A stretch of 64,000 nt of DNA from Escherichia phage vB_EcoM-Ro121c4YLVW, in the sequence record NC_052654.1; one strand, 5' to 3'. The position numbers and the translations under genes were made by a program. Below the pieces are notes generated by a model. It worked only from the letters and a program-made list of their open reading frames with translations, made no database searches and was not told where the DNA came from. Of this stretch, positions 6,462 through 28,577 are shown one piece after another (the stretch's first letter is position 1; each line of letters starts with the position of its first letter).

Positions 6462-6475
6462 TAAGGAGAAAAACA

Positions 6476-13964: not shown

Positions 13965-13972
13965 GAGAGAAA

Positions 13973-14656: not shown

Positions 14657-15593
14657 AAAATGGACTAAACTGAAAATTGATGCAAAACCTCACAGTGGTT
14701 GTGATTATCATCGTATTGTTATACCATTTAACAACAATAATTTTCAGCCTAAGAAAGATGTTGTCGTGTTTAACCGTATTCATTCTAAAGGTGCAGAATA
14801 CGTTTTATCTTTGAAACGTCAAGGTGTTAAGATTGTTGTAGATTTAGATGATTTCTACCAACTTAATCCAGAACATTATTTAGCAAGTCTATACGAGTCA
14901 AACACTCATGCTATTGTAGCTATGGTTAAGCTTGCTGATGTGGTTATTGTGACTACGGAATATTTAGCATATAAGATCCGTCACTTAAATAGGAATGTTG
15001 TTGTGATCCGAAATGCACTTCCTTTTGATAGCGGACAATTCACTTTGTCAAATGATCGTTCATCCGGTACCCCTGTTGTATGGGCTGGCGGTGCTAGTCA
15101 CGAACCAGACTTACGACTAGTCTCTAATACTTTCGATGATGAACTTCTTACTATTGCGGGATATGAAGCATCACAAAGCATCACGGGACAAGAGTGGATT
15201 AAGATTCGCAGAAATTTACCAAATGCCAAATATAAAGCCGCCGTAAAAGATTTAGATAATTACATGAGTGTTTACGAAAGTCATGCTATTGCTATAGCTC
15301 CTTTGGTAGATAATGATTTTAATAATTGTAAAAGTAATCTCAAAATCCTGGAAGCTGGAGCAAAAGGTATTCCGATTGTTTGTTCTAAGGTATTACCTTA
15401 TTTTAACCCTGTAGATGCTCGCGCTGTTGCTTACGCAGAGAATAAAGCAGAATGGCATTACGAAATTGTTAAGCTTCTTCGCAATCCAAACTATCGGGAA
15501 GATCGTGGCTTGTTCTTGGCTGAACATGTTCGAACACATTATAATCTGGCAGATGCAAACGAGTTGCGACGCCAGGTTATTGAAAGTTTGTAG
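14646..15593 (+). CDS. glycosyltransferase, GT-B fold (GT4-like), paralog 1
   Basis: C-terminal KSNLKILEAGAKGIPIVCS resembles the GT-B E-x7-E region; ATG 14646 follows AGGAGG; paralogous to the next gene. Confidence 0.65.
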   Translation: MSNKKWTKLKIDAKPHSGCDYHRIVIPFNNNNFQPKKDVVVFNRIHSKGAEYVLSLKRQGVKIVVDLDDFYQLNPEHYLASLYESNTHAIVAMVKLADVVIVTTEYLAYKIRHLNRNVVVIRNALPFDSGQFTLSNDRSSGTPVVWAGGASHEPDLRLVSNTFDDELLTIAGYEASQSITGQEWIKIRRNLPNAKYKAAVKDLDNYMSVYESHAIAIAPLVDNDFNNCKSNLKILEAGAKGIPIVCSKVLPYFNPVDARAVAYAENKAEWHYEIVKLLRNPNYREDRGLFLAEHVRTHYNLADANELRRQVIESL

Positions 15594-15600
15594 GTGAAGT

Positions 15601-16545
15601 ATGGGACAAATAATTCTTGACAATCGTAACGGAATCAATTATAGTGTCTGCGATTTCCATAGGGTAGTGCTGCCTTACTCAAGGCAGTTCTCTTCACAAC
15701 CTAAACACAACGTTTTCGTTTTTAACGGAGTGCCAACAAAAGGTAAAGAGGGCTTTTTAGCCCTTAAAAACCTGGGCTTTAAAATGGTTATGGATTTGGA
15801 TGACTCTTTAGTTATTCCAAAAGGACACATGTTAGAAGGTATTTTTGAATCAGGTATTCGTGAACATTTAAAATGGTTTTTAGAGCACAGTGATCTTGTT
15901 ACAACTACGACACCTGCCTTGCAAGTTGAACTTTCACAATACAATGATAATGTGCACATAATCCCTAATGGACTTCCTTATGATGAAGGTCAATTTGTGT
16001 TGACCCGTGATCGCTACTCCAAAACTCCATTAGTCTGGGCTGGAAGTGAAACACATAAACAAGATTTGGCTATCTTGCCCGATTTTGGTAAAGATCTTAC
16101 AATATGTGGTTTTCGTAGGGATTCTGAAGTTTTAAGTAGTCGTGAATGGTCTGTAATTAGAGAAAATGTAGCACCAACTAGTGTTTATGAAGGTGTAAGA
16201 CCATATGCCAACTACATGGAATCTTACGATGGTCATCAAATCAGTCTTGCACCATTGGTCGATAACGTGTTTAATAATGCAAAAAGCAATCTTAAAATTC
16301 TTGAGGCAGGTGCTAAGGGTTTACCTTTAATCTGCTCTCCTCGTGAGAATTATCATACGCAAGAGTTTAAAGATTTGTTATTCTTTGCTGAAACACTTTC
16401 CGAGTGGAAAGATATTACGGAATACTTATTAAGTGCTCCCGATGTTTGCATGGAGAAAGGATTAGCATTAGCTAAGTATGTCAGGACTCATTATCACATT
16501 GATGTGTTGAATGAGCGTCGTAGACTTTTATTTGAGGAGCTATAA
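15601..16545 (+). CDS. glycosyltransferase, GT-B fold (GT4-like), paralog 2
   Basis: KSNLKILEAGAKGLPLICS and overall co-linear similarity to 14646..15593. Confidence 0.65.
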   Translation: MGQIILDNRNGINYSVCDFHRVVLPYSRQFSSQPKHNVFVFNGVPTKGKEGFLALKNLGFKMVMDLDDSLVIPKGHMLEGIFESGIREHLKWFLEHSDLVTTTTPALQVELSQYNDNVHIIPNGLPYDEGQFVLTRDRYSKTPLVWAGSETHKQDLAILPDFGKDLTICGFRRDSEVLSSREWSVIRENVAPTSVYEGVRPYANYMESYDGHQISLAPLVDNVFNNAKSNLKILEAGAKGLPLICSPRENYHTQEFKDLLFFAETLSEWKDITEYLLSAPDVCMEKGLALAKYVRTHYHIDVLNERRRLLFEEL

Positions 16546-16835: not shown

Positions 16836-18614
16836 GTGTCGCACATTATAACTAAATATGGATTTGATGTTGATCTTAGCAAGGAAGGGCATACAGGTTG
16901 TCCGCGCTGCATGAAAAATGGCAAGGATCGCTCTCGTAATAACCTGATGGTTTATGGATTAGATTCTAATGGAGAGCATAAAGGTGCTAAGTGCTTTGCG
17001 TGTGAATACACTATTCCTAGCGTAGAATGGTTACGAGAAAATGGTGAAGTTTTAGAAGAAGAGGAGGAGATTGTGGGTTCGGAATTTAATAAACAGATTC
17101 ATCGTAAAATTGTTCAAGAAACATCAACCAACCCACGTGGTTATCGAGGCATTAAAGAAAAAGTTTCATCTTTCTATGGTGTTCGTTATGAATACCGTCA
17201 GGAAGGGGATCAGATGGTAGTAGAAAGTTGTTTATATCCGACTACCATCGGTAAAGAATTGGTTGGTTTTAAGCGTCGTATTCATCCTAAAGATTTCAGT
17301 AAACCTATTGGTCAAGTAGGTAAAGATGTAGATCTTTTTGGACAAATTCGTTTTGCAGACCGTTCTCATACTGTGGTAATTACAGGTGGTGAACACGATG
17401 CTCTGGCAGCTTATCAAATGCTGTCTGAAAACTTGGACAACAAATATGAACTTCCAGCAGTAGTTAGTGGCACAACTGGTGAAACCAGTATGTATAAACA
17501 AGTTCAGGCACAATATCCTTTCTTTGAAAAATTTAAGAAGATTATTGTTTGCATGGATAATGACAAAGCAGGTAATGAGGCATTTGAAAATATTGTTAAG
17601 GTGCTACCTCGTAACAAAGTCTACCGTATGCAGATGGATCTTAAGGATGCCAATCAGTATCTGGAAGAAGGTCGTGCAAAGGATTTCGTAAAGGCTTTTT
17701 GGAGTGCTCGTCTATACACCCCAGCAGGTGTTTATGCTTCTAATGTCTTGTATGAAGCTGCATTAGAATGCTTGGAATCCAAGATGATTACCTTGCCTCC
17801 TTTTATGCGTGTTGCTGCAAATATGCTGGGTGGTGGTTTAGTAGAGGAAGAGATTACAGTCATCCTAGCAAAGACCAGTATCGGTAAAACTTTGATGGTG
17901 AACGAGATCACCAAACATATTATTGTTGCGCACCCAGAACATACCCTAGGTATTCTGTCATTGGAAGCAACTTATAAGAAATATTCTCGTAACCTGTTGT
18001 CCTCGTTCCTGCATATTCCTCTACATAGGAAAACACCGGAAGAGAAATTTCAAATCTTGGAAGAGAATAAAGAAAAAATCCTAGATTTTTACGAAAGAGA
18101 AGATGGATCACCACGTTTTTATGTGTGTGATGATCGTGGAGCAGATGTGGAGTCTATCAAAGAAAAAGTTTTGGAGATGATCATCTATTTTGGAGTAACA
18201 ATTCTTGTTATCGACCCTTATTCTGATTTGCTTTCTGGTATGGATGTTCAAGCCCAAGAAGAGTTAGCAACATGGTTGAAGCGTATCATGAAAGAGTATG
18301 CTATAACTATTATCGTCATCTCACACGTTAAGAAATCGGCTAATGGTGGCAATGAACACTTAACAGAGGACGATGCAATGGGTAGTAGTTTCTTGGCTAA
18401 AGGTGCTGGTATTACCTTGGCTTTGGAACGAGATAAAGCCGCTGAAGACCCTGTAGAACGCAATACGACTCATTGCTTTATCCTAAAAAACCGTGAGTTC
18501 TCGGAGACTGGTCCGGCAGGGCAGTTTTACTATGACATTAGAACTGCAACTCTGCATGACAAAGAGCAGTATTTCAACAACCCTGCTAATTTGCCTACGG
18601 ATAGCAACTATTAA
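16836..18614 (+). CDS. bifunctional DNA primase-helicase (T7 gp4-like)
   Basis: N-terminal Zn ribbon CPRC...CFAC; TOPRIM-like VVITGGEHDA...CMDNDKAGNEA; helicase Walker A AKTSIGKT and Walker B-like VLVIDPYSD. Confidence 0.9.
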   Translation: MSHIITKYGFDVDLSKEGHTGCPRCMKNGKDRSRNNLMVYGLDSNGEHKGAKCFACEYTIPSVEWLRENGEVLEEEEEIVGSEFNKQIHRKIVQETSTNPRGYRGIKEKVSSFYGVRYEYRQEGDQMVVESCLYPTTIGKELVGFKRRIHPKDFSKPIGQVGKDVDLFGQIRFADRSHTVVITGGEHDALAAYQMLSENLDNKYELPAVVSGTTGETSMYKQVQAQYPFFEKFKKIIVCMDNDKAGNEAFENIVKVLPRNKVYRMQMDLKDANQYLEEGRAKDFVKAFWSARLYTPAGVYASNVLYEAALECLESKMITLPPFMRVAANMLGGGLVEEEITVILAKTSIGKTLMVNEITKHIIVAHPEHTLGILSLEATYKKYSRNLLSSFLHIPLHRKTPEEKFQILEENKEKILDFYEREDGSPRFYVCDDRGADVESIKEKVLEMIIYFGVTILVIDPYSDLLSGMDVQAQEELATWLKRIMKEYAITIIVISHVKKSANGGNEHLTEDDAMGSSFLAKGAGITLALERDKAAEDPVERNTTHCFILKNREFSETGPAGQFYYDIRTATLHDKEQYFNNPANLPTDSNY

Positions 18615-19147: not shown

Positions 19148-19942
19148 TTGAGCAAGTTGAACACACTTGATCAATATTACACTAACCCCGCTTATGCGGG
19201 GTTCTTATGTGATAAGATCAAAGAAATTTTTGGAGAGGAAGCTAACTACGTAGAACCATCTGCGGGAGAAGGAGCTTTCTCTTCTTGTTTTAAAAACATA
19301 ACTTCTTTTGATATTGACCCTAAGTTTGAAGATTGTATTGAGGCAGATTTTTTAGCTCAATCTGTTGAGTCTGTTGGTAGCGTAACTGCTTTTGTCGGTA
19401 ATCCTCCATTTGGAAAAAATGCTAGTCTTGCCATTAAATTCTTTAACCATTGTGCTGAAATGCTGGATAACGAAGGTGGTATTTGTTTTATCTTGCCTCG
19501 CACATTTCAAAAAATCTTTTTTGCACACAAACTAAATCCCCATATGCATCTTCTTTACGAAGAAGAATGTCCAAAAGGATCTTTTATTCTTCATGGAGAA
19601 CCTTGGGATGTTCCTTGTGTATTCCAGGTATGGATTAAACGCAACGAGAAGCGTTCTCCCGTTGTTTTAGGAGAGAATCGACTATTCGTATTAGGTAACA
19701 GTAAAGACTACGATATAGCTGTTAGGAGAGCGGGAGCAAGTGCAGGTAGAGTGTTATCAGAAGAAGATTCTTTATCTGAAGCATCTACCTATTTTTTAAA
19801 AGCCTTGACTTCTGATCTTAAAACGCGTATCATTGAGGCTTACCCGTTACTTAAAGCTGAAGCTAGTAAAACTGCGGGAGTAAGAAGTTTAAGTTTAAAA
19901 GAACTTCAGTGGGTTCTGGAGAACATTAGAAAGGAGGAATAG
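19148..19942 (+). CDS. N6-adenine DNA methyltransferase (orphan; gamma-class motif order)
   Basis: Motif I EPSAGEGAF precedes motif IV GNPPFG; TTG start after AAGGAGG. No restriction endonuclease gene is adjacent. Confidence 0.75.
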   Translation: MSKLNTLDQYYTNPAYAGFLCDKIKEIFGEEANYVEPSAGEGAFSSCFKNITSFDIDPKFEDCIEADFLAQSVESVGSVTAFVGNPPFGKNASLAIKFFNHCAEMLDNEGGICFILPRTFQKIFFAHKLNPHMHLLYEEECPKGSFILHGEPWDVPCVFQVWIKRNEKRSPVVLGENRLFVLGNSKDYDIAVRRAGASAGRVLSEEDSLSEASTYFLKALTSDLKTRIIEAYPLLKAEASKTAGVRSLSLKELQWVLENIRKEE

Positions 19943-22900
19943 TGAGTAAGTTTACATGGGATATTGAAGCAAACGGATTGTTGAATAATGACACTATTGA
20001 TTATTTAGCTAGTCCTTATCGTCTCAAAGACACATTTCAAATGCACTGTATTGTCTTAGAGAACCATGAAACAGGAGAAATAGTAGCTTTCCACGATGGC
20101 CCTAAATACATCTTTGATGGGCGTCCTTATGAAGAGTCAGATGGTAAATACACATATGTTCTTAAAGAGTATGTGGCGCAAGATTACACACATTTTCAAC
20201 TAAAAGATTTCCCAGACTTTATTAATCATGAAGGTTATTTTAAAGATAAGCCTGAATATCTGGTTGAAATGGCTGTGGCTCACAACGGTATCAACTACGA
20301 CTGGTTGGCTACAAAACTGTTTTATGGATTAGATTACAGTGTTAAATATAATACGTGGGGCAAAAATAAGGTAAAACTTATTGACTCCTTGATTTTGAGT
20401 AAAGTGTTAAACCCAGATCGAAAGATTGAGGGCAAATCAGGACATAGCTTGGCAGCACTTTCTCGAAAAGCAGGTGGTGATGTAAAAATAGATTTCCGTA
20501 AAGAGATTCCAGAAGAAGATCGATTTAAGACTTTTGCTGCGGATATGCTTTATTACTGTATCTATGACAACAAAGCCAATACGAGCGTATATAATTACCT
20601 TATGGAAGAATGGGGCGATTATGATAAATGGGAAGGTCCATTTGAACTTGAACAACGTGTAGCAGACATTATTACACGCCAGGAACACCGTGGGTTTGCT
20701 TTTAACATGAAGCAAGCAGAAGAGAACCTTGCTTTTTTGGATGCAGAAATGGAGCGTCTTCGTTTACTCGTTGAGCCTATTTTGCCACCTAAACCAGCAA
20801 CAAAAGGTTATCTTAAGGCTTTTATTCCACCTAAGTTGCAAATTAAAAAGAACTTAGAGCCAACTAACCATATGATCAATTTTGCTAAGAAACATGATGG
20901 TCATTTGGAAGAGAGGGATGGCGATTGGTGGTTAGTTATGTTGGGGAAAGAGTGGAAACTGCCAGTTGCAGCAGATGAGCCTCTATGTGATCCTAACATC
21001 CCTGCAACATTGAACGATACAACCCATATTAAAAACTGGCTCGTAGGATTAGGTTGGGTACCGTCTGAATATAAAGATAAAGACTTGACGCTTAAATCTG
21101 GCACCAAAATTAAAAAGAGCGAGGAAGAACTTCAGAAAGGTATTAGAGCTTACGTTGAGCAAACTCTATCTTCTAATTTTTGTCAGGATCGTTGTGATCA
21201 TCTGGAGTGCACACCGGAAACTTTGGAAAGGAAGATTCAAGAGCGTATAGCAAAAGGTAAAGGTCGCGGTCTTAAAGTATTGACTAACCCATGTTTTACC
21301 AAAGGTCAGGAAAAAGAAATTTGTCCTAACCTGCAAGCTTTGGGTGAGAAATTTCCTTATGCTACACAGATTGTAGAATACTTAACGTATAAGCATCGTA
21401 GGAACTCTATTTTAGGTGGCGGTGCTGATTGGGAAGAAGATGAAGAAGATCAAGAATACGATAAAGGTTTCTTAGCCGCAGTAAGGGCGGATGGGCGTAT
21501 TCCTACACCAGCCGCTACATGTGATGCTGCAACCTCTCGTATGAAACATAGATCTGTAGCTAATATTCCTCGTGTCACATCTTTGTTTGGATGGGAGATG
21601 CGTAACTTGTTTGGTGTAGAAGTTCCTAAATACTTCCAGATCGGTTATGACTTCGACTCTTTGGAAGCAAAGATTGAGTCGCATTACTGTGTGCCGATGG
21701 ATGCTCAAGCTTTGACTCGTAAAGGTTGGGTAGGATATCACGACCTGAAGGAAGGGGATGAGATTTTAGGGTACAATGCTGAAACAGGTATGAAAGAATG
21801 GACTAAAGTAAAAGGTAAGGTCTTCTATAAAAATAGTAAGACGTTTGAGATTAAAGGGAAATCACACACTTACCGTGCAACAGCAGATCACCGTTGGTAT
21901 GTTAATACCCGTAGTAAAGGGAATACTTATGTGCCTAAAGTCAGAACAACTGCCGAGCTTTGCACAGGAGATAATATTATTTGTAATGCTCCATTTAACA
22001 TGGAACAAGATCAGGTAAATAGTTTAACTTCTGTTCAACAAGGTAAATGGGATGTTCCGTGGGTAGAGCGTGTAGTTAATATGTCTCATGCCGAGCGTGT
22101 AGCTTTCTTGGAAGGTTTCTTGATTGCAGATGGTTACTGGCATGAACATAAACAAAAACCTGTTTGGCGTTGGGCGCAGAACCCAGGTGAACTTTTTGAA
22201 GCAGCTTTAACTGCCTCGTACCTGGTGCATGGAGGCAATATCTCTGTAGCTTTCAATACAAAAGAGCAGAAAGTAAAAGTGGCAACATTGACTAACCGCT
22301 CTCACATTCCTGTTCAAAGTTTGACTATTGAAGAGTGGGGTGTAGAGGATGTTTGGTGTCCACAAACAGAACTTGGTACGTGGGTCATGCGTCAGAAAGA
22401 CTGCATTACCATCACAGGAAACTGTTGGCGCTACGAACCGGAGCCTCATGAATACTGTAACGCTCTCTTGTTAGAGAAGCCTAACGATGTTCATACCATG
22501 ATGGCAAAACGTATTACAGATACTATTGGGCGTAAATTTGAACGTAGTCCGGCGAAATCTGTTAAATACGGGATCACTTATGGTGCACAAGCAGACAAGG
22601 TTGCTAAAACAATTGGTAGCGATAAATACACAGGGCAACTGGTGTTCGATGCTTTCTGGGAAGCTGCATTCCCACTGGCGCGTCTTAAAGAACGTTTAAA
22701 CGATTTCTGGGTTAAGACTGGTAAACAGTATGTTTTGGGTATTGACGGTCGTAAGGTTCCTACTCGTTCTGCTCACGCGATTCTTAACTCTCTGTTCCAA
22801 AGTGGTGGGGTTATCTGTGCTAAACGTGCAATGGTTATTTATGACGACATGATCGAAGAAGAAGGGCTAAGTGTTGACTTCTTTAAAGATGACTGGAAGA

Positions 22901-23274
22901 ATAAAGACTTCGTGCAACAAATGATTGCATATCACGATGAAGCCCAGCTTGAAGTTTCTCGTAACCTTGTAGAATTTAAATGGTTTTCACCTGAATCATT
23001 AGGTTGGAAGAAAGTAGACGATCCTGAAGAACAAAAGAAAATTGATAAAGAATGCCTTGCTAAAGTTGAAGAATGGAAACATAATAAGGAAAAAGAGACA
23101 GGGCAAATTTGGGCTAACATTCATGAATCTCCCAAAGGTGGATGGTTTACAGCCTATAGTCGGGCAGGTGAACTTGCTGCTTTAGCTGTTACTAAGGCTG
23201 GAGAATTTTACAATCTTAATGTTCAGCTTACTGCCGGATATGATGTGGGTAACTCCTGGGCGTCCTGTCACTAG
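19942..23274 (+). CDS. family A DNA polymerase with 3'-5' exonuclease domain, interrupted by an intein
   Basis: Exo I motif WDIEANGL; motif A region GYDFDSLEAKIESHY; motif B RSPAKSVKYGITYGA; about 245 extra residues lie between motifs A and B. Confidence 0.9.
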   Translation: MSKFTWDIEANGLLNNDTIDYLASPYRLKDTFQMHCIVLENHETGEIVAFHDGPKYIFDGRPYEESDGKYTYVLKEYVAQDYTHFQLKDFPDFINHEGYFKDKPEYLVEMAVAHNGINYDWLATKLFYGLDYSVKYNTWGKNKVKLIDSLILSKVLNPDRKIEGKSGHSLAALSRKAGGDVKIDFRKEIPEEDRFKTFAADMLYYCIYDNKANTSVYNYLMEEWGDYDKWEGPFELEQRVADIITRQEHRGFAFNMKQAEENLAFLDAEMERLRLLVEPILPPKPATKGYLKAFIPPKLQIKKNLEPTNHMINFAKKHDGHLEERDGDWWLVMLGKEWKLPVAADEPLCDPNIPATLNDTTHIKNWLVGLGWVPSEYKDKDLTLKSGTKIKKSEEELQKGIRAYVEQTLSSNFCQDRCDHLECTPETLERKIQERIAKGKGRGLKVLTNPCFTKGQEKEICPNLQALGEKFPYATQIVEYLTYKHRRNSILGGGADWEEDEEDQEYDKGFLAAVRADGRIPTPAATCDAATSRMKHRSVANIPRVTSLFGWEMRNLFGVEVPKYFQIGYDFDSLEAKIESHYCVPMDAQALTRKGWVGYHDLKEGDEILGYNAETGMKEWTKVKGKVFYKNSKTFEIKGKSHTYRATADHRWYVNTRSKGNTYVPKVRTTAELCTGDNIICNAPFNMEQDQVNSLTSVQQGKWDVPWVERVVNMSHAERVAFLEGFLIADGYWHEHKQKPVWRWAQNPGELFEAALTASYLVHGGNISVAFNTKEQKVKVATLTNRSHIPVQSLTIEEWGVEDVWCPQTELGTWVMRQKDCITITGNCWRYEPEPHEYCNALLLEKPNDVHTMMAKRITDTIGRKFERSPAKSVKYGITYGAQADKVAKTIGSDKYTGQLVFDAFWEAAFPLARLKERLNDFWVKTGKQYVLGIDGRKVPTRSAHAILNSLFQSGGVICAKRAMVIYDDMIEEEGLSVDFFKDDWKNKDFVQQMIAYHDEAQLEVSRNLVEFKWFSPESLGWKKVDDPEEQKKIDKECLAKVEEWKHNKEKETGQIWANIHESPKGGWFTAYSRAGELAALAVTKAGEFYNLNVQLTAGYDVGNSWASCH
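21688..22422 (+). mobile_element. intein (Hint domain with LAGLIDADG-like segment) inside the DNA polymerase gene
   Basis: Starts with Cys (CVPMDA, block A-like), TADH block B-like, LEGFLIADGYW endonuclease-like motif, ends ...ITITGN followed by +1 Cys. Flanking extein resumes in the T7-like GDIHT-equivalent region (NDVHT). Confidence 0.7.
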
Positions 23275-23292
23275 TTAACTCATTGTTTTATA

Positions 23293-23310
23293 AGGGGCTT
23301 CTGCCCCTTT
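23293..23310 (+). terminator. terminator-like hairpin after the DNA polymerase gene
   Basis: AGGGGC-TTCT-GCCCCT followed by a short T run, directly before the next RBS. Confidence 0.45.
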
Positions 23311-23322
23311 ATAGGAGGAGAT

Positions 23323-23514
23323 ATGCATTACGATTTAGATTGTCTTGGTATGCCTTATCTACCAGATGAATTTGAAGGTGAAGAAGAACGTGAATGGGAC
23401 GATGGGGATATCCGTTGTTGGTCTTGTGGTAAAGATATGTCCTATGAACAACATATGCACAATGATGGTTTCTGCATACATTGTTATAATGAAATTGATC
23501 TGGAGGAAGATTAA
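23323..23514 (+). CDS. small acidic Cys-rich (zinc-binding?) protein
   Basis: RBS AGGAGGAG; CWSCGK...CIHCYN; acidic termini. Confidence 0.45.
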   Translation: MHYDLDCLGMPYLPDEFEGEEEREWDDGDIRCWSCGKDMSYEQHMHNDGFCIHCYNEIDLEED

Positions 23515-23681
23515 TGGGAAATGGTATCATGATTTGCTATAAAATTGTGCGTATTGTCGGAGACGAAGTTATCACTCGGTATTTTATGATAGAGTCTCAA
23601 GCCGATGAGGTTTACAATGACTGGCTTGAAAAAGGTGGATACGATTTTGTATCTAAAGAAACTTTCCGTTTAGAAGTATAA
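23514..23681 (+). CDS. hypothetical small protein (55 aa, not in ORF track)
   Basis: ATG overlaps the previous stop (TAATG) after GGAGGAAG; hand translation MGNGIMICYKIVRIVGDEVITRYFMIESQADEVYNDWLEKGGYDFVSKETFRLEV. Confidence 0.35.
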   Translation: MGNGIMICYKIVRIVGDEVITRYFMIESQADEVYNDWLEKGGYDFVSKETFRLEV

Positions 23682-23691
23682 GGAGAAAACA

Positions 23692-23910
23692 ATGCGTAAA
23701 TTAGTGAGCTTTAATGTTTCAATTCTTGTTGATGAACAAAATGAAGATGTTATTAAAGGTCTTGCAAATAAGATTGCAGGTGGAATGACGGAAGCTGAAG
23801 TGTGGGAAGAATGTGCTCGACTTTATGAGGAAGGTGTTATTGAGGTCTTGGGGGATGAGATTAATATGGACGATGTTGTAAAAGTAACTGTGGAGCGTAT
23901 CCATGACTAA
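23692..23910 (+). CDS. hypothetical small protein
   Basis: RBS TAAGGAGAA. Confidence 0.45.
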   Translation: MRKLVSFNVSILVDEQNEDVIKGLANKIAGGMTEAEVWEECARLYEEGVIEVLGDEINMDDVVKVTVERIHD

Positions 23911-24496
23911 ATCAAAACAAATCAATATTGCCAAAGAAATTCTTACCGTATTAAAGATTGCTGATCCTAATTCTGTCTTGGCTGGCGGCGCTGTTCGTGA
24001 TTGGCGTATTCTTGATATTGCTGGACGTGATCTGGATTTTTACACGTCTCTTCCTGCACATCGATCAGAAGAGCAAATACAAGAATTGATTGCATCTGCT
24101 TTGATGGGAACTAATGTTCGTAAATTAGGAAACAAAGAGGCTTCTGACAATTATGAAGGTGTTACTGGTCTTAAACACGTTTTTGAGTTTGAACGTGATG
24201 GTCAGCTTTGCAACCTTATGATTATGGAACCAAGCGTAATGACAACCTTTCTAAATGAGTTTGATCTGTCCATCTGCCAGGCTGCATTTGATGGGAAGGA
24301 TTGTTATTACTCTAAAGATTTTGAAACAACTTTGGAAACAGGGATCTGCTTCTTGCACAAAGATGTTAGAGAAGATGCCAAACACGTTATTAAAATTGCT
24401 ACACGTTTCCCATATCTTCGTTTTGTGAAAGAGGTTAAGGTTCCACGTCCACCTCAAGTAGATACCAGATTGGAAGAAGATGATATTCCTTGGTAA
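23903..24496 (+). CDS. minimal Pol-beta-type nucleotidyltransferase (tRNA-NT/CCA-adding head-domain-like) with acidic SSB-tail-like C-terminus
   Basis: LAGGAVRDWRILDIAGRDLDFYT matches the GGxVRD...DxD NTase signature of CCA-adding enzymes; only 197 aa; C-terminus ...RLEEDDIPW resembles the SSB tail DDDIPF. Confidence 0.65.
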   Translation: MTKSKQINIAKEILTVLKIADPNSVLAGGAVRDWRILDIAGRDLDFYTSLPAHRSEEQIQELIASALMGTNVRKLGNKEASDNYEGVTGLKHVFEFERDGQLCNLMIMEPSVMTTFLNEFDLSICQAAFDGKDCYYSKDFETTLETGICFLHKDVREDAKHVIKIATRFPYLRFVKEVKVPRPPQVDTRLEEDDIPW

Positions 24497-24502
24497 TTAA
24501 AG

Positions 24503-24532
24503 CTTGACAATATTAAACATTTTATGATAGGA
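24503..24532 (+). promoter_or_regulatory. sigma70-like promoter candidate (TTGACA, 18 nt, TAGGAT)
   Basis: Intergenic TTGACA with a weak -10, upstream of the ORF at 24542. Confidence 0.35.
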
Positions 24533-24541
24533 TAGCATTCA

Positions 24542-24934
24542 ATGACTGAACGTTCTAAGATAGCTGTTGAAACTGTTTATGGAAACTACACCAGTTTGAC
24601 ACTAGTTGAGAAAAATGTTGTAGGTCTTGACAACTCTTTTTATTTTCAAATTTTGGTTATTCAAGGTGGAAACAAGAAGCTAACTGCTCGTGTCGAAACA
24701 TCTGAAATAATTGAAACCACTGTTACAAACAAAGAATTCATTTCACTGCAAGATACAATCCGAAACGTTATAGACGAAGAAGGCAAAGCTGCCACAATTA
24801 AACTCGGAGGTTTCCCAGTGCAAATAGTTCATTTTCCTAATGGTGAAATTGGAGTTGGAATAGGTAAAGGTAAATACCTGTTAGAGCAAGATGATATGGA
24901 AAGACTCCGCTCTTTCTGTGCAAAATTAATGTAA
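24542..24934 (+). CDS. hypothetical protein
   Basis: ORF between replication genes; no recognisable motif. Confidence 0.5.
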   Translation: MTERSKIAVETVYGNYTSLTLVEKNVVGLDNSFYFQILVIQGGNKKLTARVETSEIIETTVTNKEFISLQDTIRNVIDEEGKAATIKLGGFPVQIVHFPNGEIGVGIGKGKYLLEQDDMERLRSFCAKLM

Positions 24935-24950
24935 TGTAGAGGAGATAATA

Positions 24951-25838
24951 ATGTCCGTAATTAATACTGAAACTGATCGTAAAGGCAAAACCGTAACTTA
25001 TGCAACTGGTATCGTAGACTACGTTAAACTGGATAAATTCGCTGAACCTAAAACTTTTCATTGGGAAGGAAAAACGATTGTTTCAACTCACCGAGCCTCT
25101 CTTGTTCTGAAAGAGAAAGGTGCTAAACCAGATGAGAAAGGTGTTTGGATTTCTCTTGGTGACATTGAACTGAAAGAAGGTTATGAAAACCTGCAAGTCA
25201 AAGAAGGTGATAATTGGATCACTATTGAAAAAGGTGTAGAAGTAAGTATTGATATTGATCGCGTTGATAATAAAGGCGGTAAAACTTACTACAATACTAA
25301 AAAATCTCGTATTACAGTATTGTCTACCGATGGTGTTCAGAAGTCTAACAAATCTTCTGGTAATAAAGGTTCCAACGATGCTGCTCCTAAGCAGTCCTAT
25401 AAAAAACGTGATACTGTAGGTCTGGAAACTGGTCACGCAGTAAATGGTGCACTGGAACTGATTCGTAATGGTGTTAAAGGCGATGCTTTCGATATCGCTG
25501 GGGTTGTTCAATCTGCAACTGTCACGCTGAAATCTGAAATTGCTGAATCTCGTGGCGTTGATATTAATGATTATGATCTTGGGGCATCTGTTGGTCACGC
25601 TATTCTCAATGCTTGTAAAGACCATACCATTAAGACTGTCTCTGTAGAAGATCTGATTGATTCTGCTCGTAAAGTTCTGGCTCTGTCTGATAAAGTTGCT
25701 GCTGCCATTCGTGGTTCCGCAGAACAGCCTAAGAAAGAAGAGAAGAAAGAAGTTAAGAAACCTGAACCACAACCAGAACCAACTCCAAGTAATCAAGAAG
25801 AACCTCCAATGGACTTCGACGATGATATTCCATTCTGA
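24951..25838 (+). CDS. single-stranded DNA-binding protein
   Basis: Canonical acidic C-terminal tail PPMDFDDDIPF; strong RBS; highly biased (optimal) codon usage. Confidence 0.8.
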   Translation: MSVINTETDRKGKTVTYATGIVDYVKLDKFAEPKTFHWEGKTIVSTHRASLVLKEKGAKPDEKGVWISLGDIELKEGYENLQVKEGDNWITIEKGVEVSIDIDRVDNKGGKTYYNTKKSRITVLSTDGVQKSNKSSGNKGSNDAAPKQSYKKRDTVGLETGHAVNGALELIRNGVKGDAFDIAGVVQSATVTLKSEIAESRGVDINDYDLGASVGHAILNACKDHTIKTVSVEDLIDSARKVLALSDKVAAAIRGSAEQPKKEEKKEVKKPEPQPEPTPSNQEEPPMDFDDDIPF

Positions 25839-25870
25839 TCTTATTGATTTATAAAGAGTTTTTATAAAAG

Positions 25871-25900
25871 AAAAGGGAACCTTTGCGGGTTCCCTTTTTT
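25871..25900. terminator. bidirectional rho-independent terminator between convergent plus-strand and minus-strand modules
   Basis: AAAAGGGAACC-TTTGC-GGGTTCCCTTTTTT with A-tract upstream and T-tract downstream. Confidence 0.8.
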
Positions 25901-25901
25901 A

Positions 25902-28577
25902 TTAGTCGTAATATTTCAAACCTGTAATGAACTTCGATCCCCAATCCGCACTTGCGGCGGTGAACGTCAACATCCAAGTTGTAGCTGTACCAGTGAAGAC
26001 CTCTCGTTGCACAGTACCATCAGTGTGGTAAATGTCCACGCCAGTATGTCCATTCTTAGGAATAGTGAAGGTAACAGCACTGGTAGTGTCTCGTGCATAA
26101 GAACAAACAAATGGTGTCCCCGCCCAAACTGGATTTGTCATATCACCCATCTCAAGCTGTGGAACCCAAGCAATAAGACCTGCCGTACCATCTCCTGCGA
26201 AAGTGTCTGATCCACTTGCATTCAAAGCTATAATCTCATAGGTTATAGATGCTTGTTTGGCAACTGTCACTTTGTGTAGAATTACACGATACCAACCATT
26301 CCCCATATCGATTATGTTTGCATCTGCACCTGTAAATGTTCCAGCTACAAGATCATAAGTCCCTTCGTTAATCTCATCTCCTGAAGTCAATTTGAGTTTC
26401 ACTTTAGTGATCCCATCTGGCTTCAAGAATACGGATGCCGCCCAGTGCTTACCTGCTGTAATATCAGAAGCTGTATTCACTGCTGATAAAATATGTTGTC
26501 CTGAAGTTGTAGAAGGTGTTAACTTGTAAGTGTTAGCCGTAGTTCCAACCGGAGAGTTGATTGTTGATGCTGTGACTGTCAAGTTCGTCTTCAACCACGG
26601 GGAAGCTGTTGTCAAGTTATTGTTGATAAAGATATGTGTACGGTTGGCTGCTACAACACGTCTACCTTGTGGAGTTGTACCAACATATTCTAAAGGTGCT
26701 ACGGGAGCAGAACTCTCTGTAGGTACAAGGATATCTCCAGAAGCCCTGGCATAACGGTTACTCCTATTGACCTTTACATCCGTTGGAATAGTTTCTTGCG
26801 TCAAATCATAGTCCATCACAATCACCACAGCATTCACTGCGAGATAAGAACTATCTTCGGCAGTTACCACACCTTGATAAGTTGCTCTACAACCGATACG
26901 ACAATCACCATCAGCAACCGCTGTAATAACGCCTGTAACGGGGTCAACTGTTGCTACCGTAGGGTCATTAGAGAAATACTCAACAACCATACCAGGTAAG
27001 CTTGCTGCCCCTGTTGGCGTTATTTCTGCTACCATTGTTTGTGTTGTTCCTACTTCCATCGCAGATAAGCTAGGAGTGTAAACGCTCAATGTTGAAGCAT
27101 ATCCTCCAGAGGTATCTGATAAAGTTGTTCCTTCAGCGTTTAAGGCTGTCATACCTGCATCAAAACCACCTTCTGCATGGAAAGTCATTAAACCAGTAGA
27201 TGATATTGTCATGTTTGCAGGGGCAGAAGAAGTGTATTTAATATTGAAAAGTTTACCTCCTTCTGGGCTAACAGAATGTGTCAACTGTTTAGTTCCGCCT
27301 ACAATACAAATTCCTAAAGAATCTGTAGTTAAGCCAGTTGCCAGAATATCACCCGTAATCACGGAGCTTGCTATTGGTGTGAATTTATTATAGTTTAGAC
27401 CACTATTGAACAGATACGAGGCTTTCCCATCTTTCCAAATACCGGAATAATACATATCTCCATTATAAACGAAAAAGGTTCCTTGATAACCTAATTGGTT
27501 AGTAACATCCATATTCAGCGTATGAACGCTTGTGAGCTTGTTTATATCCCAAGAACCCACTCCTTCAGGTTTAACTGGTTTTCCCACCTGGAGTGGATCT
27601 CCGCTCGCAGAATCATACCCCAAACCTAAGTTTGCAGTGTAGTTCTTACCAATAGCCCACAAGGAATTATTGATCCCAACGAAAAAAGAGTGGCGGCTTG
27701 GTGGAAATTTCCATGTTGAAAAACCTGCTGCAAAGGTGTCCAGTTTAGTGTAGGTTGTTTCTGTATTAGACCTAACATACAAGTAGTTTACCGTACCCGT
27801 ACCACCGGAGGTATCTCCTACAACTATTGTCTGGGAAACTGTATTGATGTAATCTTTGACATACACTGTTTCAGTAGCGGATATCTTGGCATTGACAAAA
27901 GCTGTTGTTGTGTTATTATTACCTGCTAAACCTTTACTGGCTCCACAAACACGCAAGGTTCCCACATTGTTGACATAAGAACATTGGTTGTAACCTGCAT
28001 CAAAAGCAACTGCTGCGCTTGTTATCTGACGAGGAGTAGAAACTTCGTTAGTAGTGCTTGCACCTAAACTGCCTACTGTATTTTGACCCGATCCATAAAG
28101 AACACCACTATTCATTAACCAGAGAGTATTGTTATACCCTCCTTTAACCTCTTTAAGATTGGCTAAAGAAATAGTCCCTGTTATTACAGATGGAAAGCTG
28201 GTCCAAGTAGTTACACATGCATCCGTACCACCTGCTGCTATAGATCCTACCAACCCTGCTGTCAATCCTGAATATTGCCATCCCCCACTGTTAGTTTTAA
28301 TAACAAAACAACGATCTGCGGTAAACACATCTGCTACTACAGTAGAAGCTAAGTGGAAATTATTGAATCGTGCACTACGAGTTCCATCTGCAATCTCACC
28401 AAAAAGGTTTGCGCCTTGAGTAAACAATCTACCATCATTAAGCAAAATTGCTAAACTGCTATTAGAATTACCAGCATTATCTGGGTAATCTAAAGTGATT
28501 ACTTTTTTAACAATACCTGCTGGCAGAGGAACGACACCAGTGCTGGTCATAATAGTAAATATTGGAATTGGAAACAT
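25902..28577 (-). CDS. tail fibre / receptor-binding protein (large, Gly/Ser/Thr/Asn-rich)
   Basis: 891 aa, beta-rich low-complexity composition typical of fibres; last gene of the minus-strand tail module; RBS GGAGGG. Confidence 0.65.
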   Translation of the reverse strand: MFPIPIFTIMTSTGVVPLPAGIVKKVITLDYPDNAGNSNSSLAILLNDGRLFTQGANLFGEIADGTRSARFNNFHLASTVVADVFTADRCFVIKTNSGGWQYSGLTAGLVGSIAAGGTDACVTTWTSFPSVITGTISLANLKEVKGGYNNTLWLMNSGVLYGSGQNTVGSLGASTTNEVSTPRQITSAAVAFDAGYNQCSYVNNVGTLRVCGASKGLAGNNNTTTAFVNAKISATETVYVKDYINTVSQTIVVGDTSGGTGTVNYLYVRSNTETTYTKLDTFAAGFSTWKFPPSRHSFFVGINNSLWAIGKNYTANLGLGYDSASGDPLQVGKPVKPEGVGSWDINKLTSVHTLNMDVTNQLGYQGTFFVYNGDMYYSGIWKDGKASYLFNSGLNYNKFTPIASSVITGDILATGLTTDSLGICIVGGTKQLTHSVSPEGGKLFNIKYTSSAPANMTISSTGLMTFHAEGGFDAGMTALNAEGTTLSDTSGGYASTLSVYTPSLSAMEVGTTQTMVAEITPTGAASLPGMVVEYFSNDPTVATVDPVTGVITAVADGDCRIGCRATYQGVVTAEDSSYLAVNAVVIVMDYDLTQETIPTDVKVNRSNRYARASGDILVPTESSAPVAPLEYVGTTPQGRRVVAANRTHIFINNNLTTASPWLKTNLTVTASTINSPVGTTANTYKLTPSTTSGQHILSAVNTASDITAGKHWAASVFLKPDGITKVKLKLTSGDEINEGTYDLVAGTFTGADANIIDMGNGWYRVILHKVTVAKQASITYEIIALNASGSDTFAGDGTAGLIAWVPQLEMGDMTNPVWAGTPFVCSYARDTTSAVTFTIPKNGHTGVDIYHTDGTVQREVFTGTATTWMLTFTAASADWGSKFITGLKYYD

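What the first reader, a model, noticed from the sequence alone, without database searches (positions are those of the whole stretch)
23903..24496. Minimal CCA-type nucleotidyltransferase carrying an SSB-like acidic C-terminal tail
The 197-aa ORF has the GGAVRD...DLD head-domain signature of tRNA nucleotidyltransferases but lacks the usual body and tail domains. It ends in EEDDIPW, closely resembling the DDDIPF tail of the phage SSB encoded 450 bp downstream. It could be an RNA or tRNA 3'-end repair or tagging enzyme recruited to SSB-binding partners, or a competitor for the SSB-tail interactome.
Basis: partly seen in the sequence, partly recalled or inferred. Interest (0 to 1): 0.6.

Follow-up and report, generated by a model that had tools for sequence, protein, structure and literature searches.

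The report
Phage mini-nucleotidyltransferase with SSB-like docking tail
A phAPEC8-type E. coli phage encodes a stripped-down CCA/poly(A)-type nucleotidyltransferase whose flexible C-terminus ends in DDIPW, a near copy of the DDDIPF docking peptide of SSB, which suggests the enzyme is delivered to proteins that bind the SSB tail rather than acting as an ordinary tRNA CCA-adding enzyme.

Summary
ORF 23903-24496 (+) encodes 197 aa with GGAVRD and DLD, and ends EEDDIPW. The 295-aa SSB-annotated protein 455 bp downstream ends EPPMDFDDDIPF, identical over 12 residues to E. coli SSB. The window is a Phapecoctavirus, where this gene is already annotated as a putative tRNA nucleotidyltransferase/poly(A) polymerase.

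A confident AlphaFold model (pLDDT 93) matches class II CCA-adding, CC-adding, A-adding and poly(A) enzymes. It covers only the head and the first neck helix; residues 177-197 are a low-confidence Pro-rich linker plus the acidic tip.

The protein belongs to a large phage family of about 200-aa nucleotidyltransferases. G28, G29, D43 and D45 are invariant in 141 diverse members. The family overlaps Pfam PF26128 (Gad2, an anti-Gabija protein).

Family genes lie mainly with T7-like primase-helicase and family A polymerase genes. RNA-repair genes are nearby in only 4 of 61 lineages. All 11 phAPEC8 tRNA genes encode CCA.

DDIPW is kept in every homolog of at least 59% identity despite a variable linker. 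IP[FWY] tips recur in seven family lineages, far above chance.

Best reading: an active 3'-end nucleotidyltransferase recruited through an SSB-tail mimic. Substrate and partner are unknown. It is a new variant of a known kind, of moderate interest.

The parts
23903..24496 (+). CDS of the 197-aa stand-alone class II nucleotidyltransferase (head domain, first neck helix, linker and acidic tip)
23984..24001 (+). Motif A, first part: G28-G29-A-V-R-D33
   Evidence: G28 and G29 are invariant; A30, R32, D33 and W34 are kept in at least 90% of 141 family members. The stretch aligns with GGAVRD of E. coli Cca and of PDB CCA-adding enzymes.
24029..24037 (+). Catalytic carboxylate pair D43-L-D45 (the DxD of motif A)
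   Evidence: Invariant in 141 of 141 sequences.
24185..24187 (+). E95, candidate third carboxylate on the central beta-strand
   Evidence: E in 82, N in 21 and D in 17 of 141 members. It lies in strand 90-98 of the model. The assignment is inferred.
24260..24283 (+). Motif B-like segment F120-D-L-S-I-C-Q-A127, with the RR of RRD lost
   Evidence: It lines up with RRDLTINA of E. coli Cca in a colinear but weak pairwise alignment. F120, S123, I124 and C125 are conserved in the family; position 121 is not.
24371..24412 (+). Motif D-like neck helix E157-D-A-K-H-V-I-K-I-A-T-R-F-P170
   Evidence: It lines up with EDPLRVLRVARFAARY of E. coli Cca. K164 is kept in 98% of members, H161 is H or Y, and F169 and P170 are conserved. 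E157 and D158 are not conserved across the family.
24431..24472 (+). Pro-rich, low-confidence linker (residues 177-190, EVKVPRPPQVDTRL)
   Evidence: Mean pLDDT is 77 for residues 181-190 and 54 for 191-197, with no secondary structure. Sequence and length vary among homologs.
24473..24493 (+). Acidic C-terminal tip EEDDIPW, resembling the SSB C-terminal peptide
   Evidence: DDIPW is conserved in all homologs of at least 59% identity. It is one of only two such ORF ends in the window. IP[FWY] tips are enriched across the family.
24504..24533 (+). Promoter-like site (TTGACA, 18-nt spacer, TAGGAT, with TG) between the NTase gene and the next gene
   Evidence: Consensus scan, 10 of 12 matches. This is a pattern match only.
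24542..24934 (+). Conserved 130-aa protein of unknown function (PHROG 16560), always found between the NTase and SSB genes
   Evidence: PHROG hit at E 1e-76. The same gene order occurs in phi92, KP13-26, phiWec190, PsgM04F, L008 and six IMG/VR lineages.
24951..25838 (+). 295-aa protein annotated as SSB, with the host-identical tail EPPMDFDDDIPF (nt 25800-25835)
   Evidence: The tail matches E. coli SSB chains 1eqq and 7f2n. NCBIfam NF006533 and PHROGs 18154 and 7364 match the tail only. The GenBank annotation is 'SSB'.
25871..25898 (.). GC-rich hairpin with flanking A and T runs between the convergent SSB and tail-protein genes (terminator-like)
   Evidence: Terminator scan and sequence.
19942..23274 (+). 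Upstream T7-like family A DNA polymerase gene (context); it carries an intein at nt 21688-22422
   Evidence: GenBank annotation. Comparison with the intein-less allele.
16836..18614 (+). T7 gp4-like primase-helicase gene (context)
   Evidence: PHROG 239 at E 2e-164.

Best explanation
The gene encodes a catalytically intact, stand-alone class II (CCA/poly(A)-type) nucleotidyltransferase core. It belongs to a large phage-borne family of about 200-aa proteins that usually lie in T7-like replication modules. In the Phapecoctavirus lineage the core is followed by a roughly 20-residue disordered, Pro-rich linker and the tip DDIPW.

Proposed mechanism: the tip acts as a short docking peptide that copies the SSB C-terminal peptide. 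Its terminal aromatic side chain and free carboxylate would enter the hydrophobic pocket, and its aspartates would contact the basic ridge, of proteins that normally receive the SSB tail. Candidates are the phage's own T7-like polymerase or primase-helicase, or host SSB-interacting proteins.

Docking would bring a template-independent 3'-end nucleotidyltransferase, which has no substrate-binding domain of its own, to SSB-coated ssDNA and replication intermediates. There it would add nucleotides to exposed 3'-OH ends of RNA or DNA. A counter-defence purpose is possible, by analogy with the family's relative Gad2.

Shown here: the fold, the invariant catalytic residues, the tail and its conservation, the family's size and its gene neighbourhood.

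Inferred: that the tail binds SSB-tail receptors, which receptor it binds, the substrate, and the purpose.
For: Fold and active site:
- G28, G29, D43 and D45 are invariant, and R32, D33, W34, Y84 and K164 are kept in at least 90% of 141 members sharing 22-83% identity.

Family:
- 1033 cluster representatives at E<=1e-3, most of them 175-230 aa.
- About half of the best profile hits carry a precomputed PF26128 'Gad2' hit. It is unmarked (E<=1e-5) for P0161 and is listed for P0009, which is 61% identical to the query.
- Gad2 is a phage nucleotidyltransferase-domain protein needed to overcome Gabija (bioRxiv 10.1101/2023.05.01.538930).

Tail:
- It is disordered and at the extreme C-terminus.
- DDIPW is conserved over a variable linker down to 59% identity.
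- It is unique in the window apart from SSB.
- IP[FWY] tips occur in 7 family lineages against 0.4 expected.
- The sister proteins P0118 and P0131 end NDIPW and SDDDF, two acidic tips that each end in an aromatic residue.
- In the same loci, 14 of the 16 non-NTase ORFs with this tip have acidic tails of the SSB kind (DDDIPF, GDDVPW, DKDIPW and similar), including W-ended ones. So DDIPW is a natural SSB-type tip.

Context:
- The local gene order is polymerase, three small ORFs, NTase, the 130-aa gene, then SSB.
- In 61 lineages, a primase-helicase gene lies within 10 kb in 38, a family A polymerase in 29 and a FEN-like exonuclease in 22.

Precedent:
- In T7, the acidic tails of both gp2.5 (SSB) and gp4 (helicase-primase) end in Phe and dock on the polymerase (PMC12339929; bioRxiv 10.64898/2026.02.22.705581).
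Against: - No binding was tested and no partner was identified.
- NTase tail and SSB tail do not co-vary. PsgM04F keeps DEDIPW on the NTase although its SSB has DDDIPF buried before a 15-residue extension. The Klebsiella phages keep a terminal DDDIPF on SSB but their NTases end AWDDL or AWDHL. The phi92 NTase ends EEFKI.
- Most family members (over 95% of lineages) have no such tip, so the enzyme's core job does not need it.
- The tip always ends in W whereas the SSBs end in F, so it may address a different pocket.
- Class II enzymes are known to act on RNA. Action on DNA 3' ends or primers is speculation.
- Lying in a replication module is weak evidence in phages, where many early and middle genes are interleaved.
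- The link to Gad2 rests on precomputed Pfam hits, some only 'weak' or 'faint'. The local Pfam copy gave no PF26128 hit.
Confidence: 0.42

Rival explanations
1. It is an RNA or tRNA 3'-end repair or tailing enzyme, a minimal CCA-adding or poly(A)-type enzyme that restores or extends damaged RNA 3' ends during infection, for example against tRNA-targeting defences. On this view the tail is secondary.
For: - The closest folds are class II tRNA nucleotidyltransferases.
- A motif D-like EDAKH...K...RF helix is present in this protein.
- Four of 61 family lineages have RNA-repair genes nearby. In L017 RtcB is two genes downstream. In L053 T4-type RNA ligase 1 and a kinase/phosphatase follow closely. 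In L021 and L055 they lie 3-9 kb away.
- Related small phage NTases and the SPbetaL7 Gad2 are toxic when expressed, as expected if they act on abundant cellular RNA (PMC7291057).
Against: - There is no body or tail domain to hold a tRNA, and the folded core ends near residue 176.
- The RR of motif B is lost, and the ED of motif D is not conserved in the family.
- The Pfam PolyA_pol score is below threshold (15.5 against 23 bits).
- All 11 phAPEC8 tRNA genes encode CCA, and E. coli has its own Cca.
- No RNA ligase or kinase was seen in the window or in the phAPEC8 annotation.
- 57 of 61 lineages have no RNA-repair neighbour, whereas replication genes are common.
- This view does not explain an SSB-type tip.
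Confidence: 0.2
2. It is a Gad2-type counter-defence enzyme. Its nucleotidyltransferase activity would neutralise a host nuclease/helicase immune system such as Gabija, and the tail would only fine-tune its localisation.
For: - PF26128 (Gad2) is precomputed on many family members, including P0009 at 61% identity and, unmarked (E<=1e-5), P0161.
- Gad2 is required for phage SPbetaL7 to resist Gabija and is predicted to be a nucleotidyltransferase.
- The catalytic residues are invariant.
Against: - Gad2 is 400 aa and comes from Bacillus SPbeta-like phages.
- No SPbeta-like phage was hit by tblastn with this protein or with P0161.
- The local Pfam copy returned no PF26128 hit.
- The Gad2 mechanism is itself unknown.
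- The gene is a conserved core part of the replication module across Stephanstirmvirinae, not a variable accessory gene as many anti-defence genes are.
Confidence: 0.15
3. It is a decoy or competitor. The tail would occupy SSB-tail pockets on host proteins such as Exo I, RecQ or PriA to inhibit them, with the enzyme domain incidental.
For: The tip closely resembles DDDIPF and sits on a flexible linker. The phage evidently exploits this interaction, since its SSB tail is identical to the host's.
Against: - Strict conservation of the catalytic GG and DxD residues shows selection on enzyme activity.
- The phage SSB, usually abundant, already presents the exact host tail, so a second competitor adds little.
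- Most family members lack the tip.
Confidence: 0.08
4. The tail is an intramolecular regulator, an acidic pseudo-substrate that folds back on the enzyme's own nucleic-acid-binding surface, or simply a lineage-specific acidic end. Its likeness to SSB would then be convergent.
For: - Related lineages end in other acidic-hydrophobic tips (DVFNF, MDEI, TDEI, AWDDL, EEFKI) rather than DDIPW.
- Acidic tails of SSBs are known to fold back on their own DNA-binding site; this is established knowledge for E. coli SSB, T7 gp2.5 and T4 gp32.
- Tail states do not co-vary with SSB tails.
Against: - Four of five residues are identical to the SSB tip, at the exact C-terminus.
- IP[FWY] ends recur in seven lineages.
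- In the same loci this ending is otherwise almost confined to proteins with SSB-like acidic tails.
Confidence: 0.1

Closest known systems
Class II tRNA nucleotidyltransferases and bacterial poly(A) polymerase (E. coli Cca and PcnB; A. aeolicus CC-adding and A-adding enzymes; T. maritima and B. stearothermophilus CCA-adding enzymes)
   Same: The same head-domain fold, and colinear motifs: motif A (GGAVRD...DxD), a motif B-like xFDLSICQA and a motif D-like EDAKH...K...RF helix.
   Different: It is half the size. It has no body or tail domains and no HD domain. The RR of motif B is lost, and in motif D the Arg is replaced by His and the motif is not conserved in the family. Pfam PF01743 scores below threshold.
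Stand-alone 'CCA-adding enzyme head domain' protein NP_344798.1 of Streptococcus pneumoniae (PDB 2la3, 191 aa)
   Different: Only 13% identity, a bacterial rather than phage protein, and no known function. Whether it has an SSB-like tail was not examined here.
Gad2 (Gabija anti-defence 2; Pfam PF26128)
   Same: A phage-encoded nucleotidyltransferase-domain protein. Many members of this family carry precomputed PF26128 hits, and both are toxic or potentially toxic on expression.
   Different: Gad2 is 400 aa and comes from Bacillus SPbeta-like phages.
The SSB C-terminal peptide (DDDIPF) as a docking hub, and the T7 precedent in which gp2.5 and gp4 share an acidic Phe-ended tail that docks on the polymerase
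   Same: An acidic run followed by I-P-aromatic at the free C-terminus after a disordered Pro-rich linker. The phage also has a T7-like polymerase and primase-helicase (PMC5872125 for the DDDIPF hexapeptide).
   Different: The carrier is an enzyme, not a DNA-binding protein. The terminal residue is always Trp, not Phe, and binding is untested.
Small phage nucleotidyltransferases of Autographiviridae (for example Klebsiella phage fHe-Kpn01 Gp22, 182 aa, toxic in E. coli)
   Same: About 170-200 aa, a CCA-enzyme-like head fold, and a position among replication genes.
   Different: Only 14-19% identity in structure-based matches. No SSB-like tip was noted, and the relationship is at fold level.
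MNT-like phage nucleotidyltransferases that make competitor cyclic dinucleotides against TIR-STING (Ho et al., bioRxiv 10.1101/2022.06.09.495361)
   Same: Small phage nucleotidyltransferases of the Pol-beta superfamily with a counter-defence role.
   Different: A different family. Their signature is GS-x-AY[GAN]T-x4-SDxD, whereas this protein has AGGAVRDW...DLDFY.

Membership tests
Class II tRNA nucleotidyltransferase / poly(A) polymerase superfamily (PF01743 head domain) | Motif A: GGxVRD followed by the catalytic DxD | tested here: met
   G28-G29-A-V-R-D33 and D43-L-D45 are present. G28, G29, D43 and D45 are invariant in 141 members, and the stretch aligns with CCA-adding enzymes in the PDB and with E. 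coli Cca.
Class II tRNA nucleotidyltransferase / poly(A) polymerase superfamily (PF01743 head domain) | Head-domain fold | tested here: met
Class II tRNA nucleotidyltransferase / poly(A) polymerase superfamily (PF01743 head domain) | Pfam gathering score for PF01743 | tested here: not met
   15.5 bits against a cut-off of 23 (E 0.023). Only 19 of 141 family members reach E<=0.01.
CCA-adding enzyme (functional class) | Motif B: RRD | tested here: not met
   The colinear segment is N-E-F-D-L-S-I-C (EFD in place of RRD). The family consensus has F at 120 and a variable residue at 121.
CCA-adding enzyme (functional class) | Motif D: EDxxR, the amino-acid template for CTP and ATP | tested here: inconclusive
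   The window protein has EDAKH, with H in place of R, on the matching helix. E157 and D158 are not conserved in the family; H161 is H in 58% and Y in 37% of members. The alignment is weak (score 35-58).
CCA-adding enzyme (functional class) | Body and tail domains that bind the tRNA acceptor and T arms | tested here: not met
   The protein is 197 aa. The fold ends near residue 176 and the rest is linker and tip. The matched structures are 370-460 aa.
CCA-adding enzyme (functional class) | Adds C, C and A to tRNA 3' ends | not testable with these tools
   This needs an enzyme assay. As context, all 11 phage tRNA genes already encode CCA.
Gad2 (Pfam PF26128) | Significant match to the PF26128 profile | tested here: inconclusive
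   Precomputed hits are listed for P0009 (61% identity) and for about half of the profile hits. The hit is unmarked (E<=1e-5) for P0161, 'weak' for P0118 and P0131, and 'faint' for P0016 and P0159. No hit is listed for P0001, which is 99% identical to the query. The local Pfam copy returned no PF26128 hit for any sequence.
Gad2 (Pfam PF26128) | About 400-aa architecture and inhibition of Gabija | not testable with these tools
   At 197 aa the length differs from Gad2's 400 aa. Anti-Gabija activity needs an infection assay.
SSB C-terminal docking peptide (DDDIPF type) | Acidic run, then I-P-aromatic, at the free C-terminus | tested here: met
   The protein ends E-E-D-D-I-P-W followed by the stop codon. 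The terminal residue is W instead of F. W-ended tips also occur on proteins with SSB-like acidic tails in other phages.
SSB C-terminal docking peptide (DDDIPF type) | Preceded by an intrinsically disordered linker | tested here: met
   Residues 177-197 have no secondary structure and pLDDT falls to 54. The linker is Pro-rich (PRPPQ) and varies among homologs.
SSB C-terminal docking peptide (DDDIPF type) | Binds SSB-interacting proteins | not testable with these tools
   This needs peptide-binding or pull-down assays.
Bacterial OB-fold SSB (for the neighbouring gene 24951-25838) | OB-fold ssDNA-binding domain | tested here: inconclusive
   Only the last 25-45 residues match SSB profiles or PDB chains. 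The body matches PHROG 4477 (unknown function), and no structure was predicted.
MNT-like phage cyclic-dinucleotide synthases (Ho et al.) | GS-x-AY[GAN]T-x4-SDxD catalytic signature | tested here: not met
   The sequence reads LAGGAVRDW...RDLDFY. The signature is quoted from the paper.

The most novel reading that the evidence does not exclude
A phage enzyme carries a mimic of the SSB tail so that host or phage proteins that normally grab SSB instead recruit a template-independent nucleotidyltransferase to ssDNA and replication intermediates. There it would tail exposed 3' ends and so blind end-sensing or SSB-sensing immune nucleases such as Gabija or OLD-type systems. This would give a mechanism for the uncharacterised Gad2-like nucleotidyltransferase family and would be the first case of an enzyme hijacking the SSB interaction hub by tail mimicry.
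Probability: 0.15. Interest if true: 0.8.

Novelty: new variant of a known kind. Interest (0 to 1): 0.5.

Why it matters
Small stand-alone CCA-type nucleotidyltransferases are very common in phages. This family alone has more than 1000 cluster representatives at 50% identity, yet none has a known substrate. One relative (Gad2) defeats the Gabija immune system by an unknown route, and others are toxic to bacteria.

An SSB-type docking tip on one clade gives a concrete handle for experiments. It predicts a binding partner that can be fished out with a 7-10-residue peptide, and through that partner the place where the enzyme works.

If confirmed, the set of proteins known to use the SSB C-terminal peptide code would grow from SSBs (and T7 gp4) to an enzyme. 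It could also explain how enzymes of this family find their substrates without a nucleic-acid-binding domain.

If the tail turns out to bind nothing, the gene remains an ordinary, already annotated phage nucleotidyltransferase.

Tried and rejected
- Sequence search of the single protein against the PDB gave only noise (PYL1 and similar). The family profile hit only about 40 residues of motif A.
- hhalign of the family profile against E. coli Cca aligned motif A only. I ran no further search on a class II profile.
- The first AF2 run with 13 sequences was poor (pLDDT 62) and was not used for fold search. The 141-sequence run was used instead.
- The afdb50 fold library was unavailable.
- Phage tRNA maturation was rejected as a rationale. 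The window has no tRNA genes, and the 11 phAPEC8 tRNA genes all encode CCA.
- Co-variation between NTase tip and SSB tip across Stephanstirmvirinae was looked for and not found.
- A link to DARNA, a defence activated by phage SSB-bound ssDNA, was rejected. DARNA cuts anticodon loops, not CCA ends.
- Identity with the MNT-like phage cGAMP-making nucleotidyltransferases was rejected on motif grounds.
- I could not obtain a Gad2 sequence. No accession is given in the preprint, tblastn with P0161 found no Bacillus phage, and no Gad2 structure appeared among the PDB matches.
- An Rfam scan of 22500-26500 found nothing credible.
- The minus-strand ORFs overlapping the gene (23719-23934 and 24251-24457) are short and were given no further weight.
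Full report
**What the window is.** Megablast of 23000-26000 finds 63 phage genomes covering the query at 95-99% identity, all phAPEC8-like E. coli myoviruses (Stephanstirmvirinae, genus Phapecoctavirus). In those records the ORF in question is annotated 'putative tRNA nucleotidyl transferase / poly(A) polymerase' or 'nucleotidyltransferase', and the downstream gene is annotated 'SSB'. So the gene and its broad family assignment are already in public annotation. The likeness of the two tails is the only part that might be new. I found no paper describing it, though the library searched is incomplete.

**Check of the observation.** ORF 23903..24496 (+) encodes 197 aa.
- It contains G28-G-A-V-R-D33 and D43-L-D45, and it ends E-E-D-D-I-P-W before TAA.
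- ORF 24951..25838 (295 aa) ends EPPMDFDDDIPF. These 12 residues are identical to the C-terminus of E. coli SSB in PDB entries 1eqq and 7f2n.
- In a six-frame scan of the whole window, these two are the only ORFs of at least 40 aa that end in an aromatic residue preceded by at least three acidic residues in the last eight.

**Fold.** With only 13 homologs the AlphaFold model was poor (pLDDT 62). With 141 family members it became confident (pLDDT 93.3, pTM 0.86).
- Residues 1-176 form an alpha/beta domain. Residues 177-197 have no secondary structure, and confidence falls to 54 at the end.
- Foldseek against all PDB chains gives the same picture (3wfr, 3h39, 5hc9; TM about 0.55 on the query).
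- 'Minimal CCA-type nucleotidyltransferase' is therefore a fair structural description.

**Motifs.** By sequence the link to the class II enzymes is thin.
- Pfam PolyA_pol scores 15.5 bits against a cut-off of 23. The family profile matches PDB CCA-adding enzymes only over the roughly 40 residues of motif A.
- A colinear pairwise alignment with E. coli Cca places F120-D-L-S-I-C-Q-A opposite R-R-D-L-T-I-N-A (motif B). It places E157-D-A-K-H-V-I-K-I-A-T-R-F opposite E-D-P-L-R-V-L-R-V-A-R-F-A-A-R-Y (motif D).
- The alignment scores are low. I treat it as an interpretation consistent with the fold matches, not as proof.

**Family and conservation.** A profile search of 1.84 billion cluster representatives returns 1033 proteins at E<=1e-3 and 329 at E<=1e-10. 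Nearly all are 175-230 aa, so the short architecture is a family trait, not a truncation.
- In an alignment of 141 members (22-83% identical to the query), G28, G29, D43 and D45 are invariant.
- Q6, A10, A27, A30, R32, D33, W34, Y84 and K164 are kept in at least 90% of members. E95, on the central strand, is E, D or N.
- The two arginines of motif B are absent, and the E-D of the motif D-like helix is not conserved across the family. The features that define CCA specificity are therefore not family features.
- BFVD structure matches show the same small fold in many phages: ICP1 ORF223, Autographiviridae such as Pectobacterium PP2 and Aeromonas phiAS7, and Caulobacter phages.

**Links to characterised proteins.** About half of the best profile hits carry a precomputed Pfam PF26128 hit, which the contig look-ups name 'Gad2'.
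- The hit is unmarked (E<=1e-5) for P0161, 'weak' for P0118 and P0131, and 'faint' for P0016 and P0159. It is listed for P0009, which is 61% identical to the query.
- Gad2 is the 400-aa protein of Bacillus phage SPbetaL7 that is needed to resist Gabija. It is predicted to be a nucleotidyltransferase and is toxic when expressed alone; its mechanism is not known.
- I could not compare sequences directly. The local Pfam copy gave no PF26128 hit, and no SPbeta-type phage appeared in tblastn.
- A 182-aa nucleotidyltransferase of Klebsiella phage fHe-Kpn01 (Gp22), modelled on the same CCA-adding enzymes, is toxic in E. coli.
- The MNT-like phage nucleotidyltransferases that make competitor cyclic dinucleotides are a different family with a different signature.

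**The tail within the close clade.** In the ten homologs of 59-99% identity the last five residues are D-D-I-P-W (once D-S-F-P-W). The 10-20 residues before them differ in sequence and length. That is how a short linear docking motif on a flexible linker usually looks.

**The tail beyond the close clade.** Here the picture is mixed.
- P0016, at 34% identity and in a syntenic contig, ends PDDIPW.
- The phi92-type NTases (37% identity) end EEFKI. Klebsiella Stephanstirmvirinae have a 45-residue extension ending AWDHL or AWDDL. Other lineages end DVFNF, MDEI or TDEI.
- In more distant members, IP[FWY] ends recur: P0118 NDIPW, P0159 DDGIPF, P0110 KPIPF, P0034/L042 ESIPY and L055 NNIPF.
- P0131, a sister of P0118, ends SDDDF.
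- Counting lineages, seven carry [ILVMF]-P-[FWY] at the C-terminus. The motif's rate per position inside the same 268 proteins is 0.0016, which predicts about 0.4 terminal occurrences (Poisson P about 5e-6 for six or more).

**Background for the tip.** In the 88 loci examined, 16 of 2203 non-NTase ORFs have this ending. Fourteen of them have acidic tails of the SSB kind (DDDIPF, DDDVPF, DDSIPF, GDDVPW, DKDIPW, GDDIPW). W-ended tips are thus a natural variant of this type of tail, and in these genomes the ending is almost a marker for it.

**Context in this phage.**
- The + strand carries four glycosyltransferase-like genes, a T7 gp4-like primase-helicase (16836-18614), two further genes, a T7-like family A polymerase (19942-23274) and three small ORFs.
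- These are followed by the NTase, a conserved 130-aa gene (PHROG 16560) and the SSB gene, after which come convergent tail genes.
- A sigma-70-like site (TTGACA, 18-nt spacer, TAGGAT) lies between the NTase and the 130-aa gene, and a hairpin follows SSB.
- The order polymerase, NTase, 130-aa gene, SSB is kept in phi92, KP13-26, phiWec190, PsgM04F, L008 and six IMG/VR lineages.

**Context across the family.** I called ORFs in 88 loci and grouped the NTases into 61 lineages at 80% identity.
- Within 10 kb there is a primase-helicase gene in 38 lineages, a family A polymerase in 29, a FEN-like 5'-3' exonuclease in 22 and a DNA ligase in 9.
- RNA-repair genes (T4-type RNA ligase 1 with a kinase/phosphatase, or RtcB) are nearby in 4.
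- Those four are real and two are tight: in L017 RtcB is two genes downstream, and in L053 the ligase and kinase follow within 400 bp. They keep an RNA-repair role alive as a rival, but they are a small minority.

**The tRNA argument.** The window has no tRNA genes. phAPEC8 has 11, and every one is followed by or ends in CCA. The phage does not need CCA synthesis to mature its own tRNAs, and the host has Cca. CCA repair after damage remains conceivable. However, the protein has no domain to hold a tRNA, and the CCA-specific motifs are not conserved.

**How it most likely works.** The enzyme core is under strong selection and has no evident substrate-binding module. In this clade its only extra element is a disordered linker ending in a near copy of the peptide through which SSB recruits its partners. 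DDDIPF is the conserved hexapeptide that engages many E. coli proteins (PMC5872125, PMC7145534).

The phage's replication genes are of the T7 type. In T7, the acidic Phe-ended tails of both the SSB (gp2.5) and the helicase-primase (gp4) dock on the polymerase, and a DTDF peptide mimicking the gp4 tail is seen bound in PDB 6P7E. A non-SSB protein that shares the SSB's tail to reach the same partner therefore has a direct precedent.

I conclude that tail-mediated recruitment to an SSB-tail receptor is the best-supported mechanism, and I give it about 0.4. It would place a 3'-end nucleotidyltransferase at replication intermediates. The receptor, the substrate (RNA primer, other RNA or DNA 3' end) and the purpose (replication chemistry or counter-defence of the Gad2 kind) are inferred, not shown.

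**Evidence against this reading.**
- Tail states of NTase and SSB do not co-vary.
- The NTase tip is always W while the SSBs are F.
- Most of the family lacks the tip.

**Rivals.**
- RNA or tRNA end repair: 0.2.
- A Gad2-type counter-defence enzyme for which the tail is secondary: 0.15.
- An intramolecular or convergent acidic tail: 0.1.
- A pure decoy for host SSB partners: 0.08. This one is disfavoured by the invariant active site and by the abundance of the phage SSB's own host-identical tail.

**Verdict.** The gene is a known, annotated kind. The SSB-type tip on it is a new variant worth a simple peptide-binding experiment.

Noticed in passing
window 21688-22422 (within the polymerase gene 19942-23274): The family A DNA polymerase carries a 245-residue intein (C583...N827, followed by Cys) with a LAGLIDADG-type motif (LEGFLIADG at residue 723). 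The flanks are 100% identical to the intein-less 865-aa allele of phAPEC8_ev052. The phi92 and L008 polymerases are also about 1100 aa, and one IMG/VR polymerase has an intein with an HNH domain.
   Followed up: partly
L002 6026-6973 (phi92 gp156), L015 3564-4517 (PsgM04F), L025 11026-11973: In some Stephanstirmvirinae the SSB-annotated protein does not end at DDDIPF. It continues with APIGLQYGRNFLHCF, which buries the canonical tip that normally needs a free C-terminus. The extension is identical in phi92, PsgM04F and an IMG/VR contig.
   Followed up: partly
window 13401-16545: Four consecutive glycosyltransferase-like genes (PHROGs 14179, 2456 and 7162 twice) lie just upstream of the primase-helicase gene. 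phAPEC8 also encodes dTDP-rhamnose pathway genes (gp166-169). Their target (DNA, virion or host surface) is unknown.
   Followed up: no
window 24542-24934: A 130-aa protein of unknown function (PHROG 16560) is always wedged between the NTase and SSB genes in every related lineage examined. It could be a partner of either.
   Followed up: partly
window 24951-25838: The 'SSB' matches SSB profiles only through its last 25-45 residues. Its body (PHROG 4477) has no recognised OB-fold signature by sequence. The 12-residue tail is identical to the host's.
   Followed up: partly
L006 1984-2664 (Vibrio phage 1.264.O); L044 727-1416; L045 7134-7805: Proteins of about 225-230 aa next to replication genes (the L006 one belongs to PHROG 862, unknown function) end in GDDIPW, GDDVPW or DKDIPW. 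These are probably an unrecognised SSB family with W-ended tips.
   Followed up: partly
L009 2-796: An exonuclease (PHROG 107) ends in a long acidic tail...EDDSDALDDFDDF. This is another replication enzyme with an acidic tail that ends in an aromatic residue, in the same contig as the NDIPW-ended NTase P0118.
   Followed up: no
L011 5513-7021 (phAPEC8 record coordinates 5513-7021): A 1.5-kb stretch has no annotated gene, no tRNA, and an AT-rich, repeat-like sequence.
   Followed up: no
window 19148-19942: The gene annotated 'DarB-like anti-restriction' matches a DNA methyltransferase PHROG weakly (PHROG 799, E 1e-10). It sits between the primase-helicase and polymerase genes.
   Followed up: no
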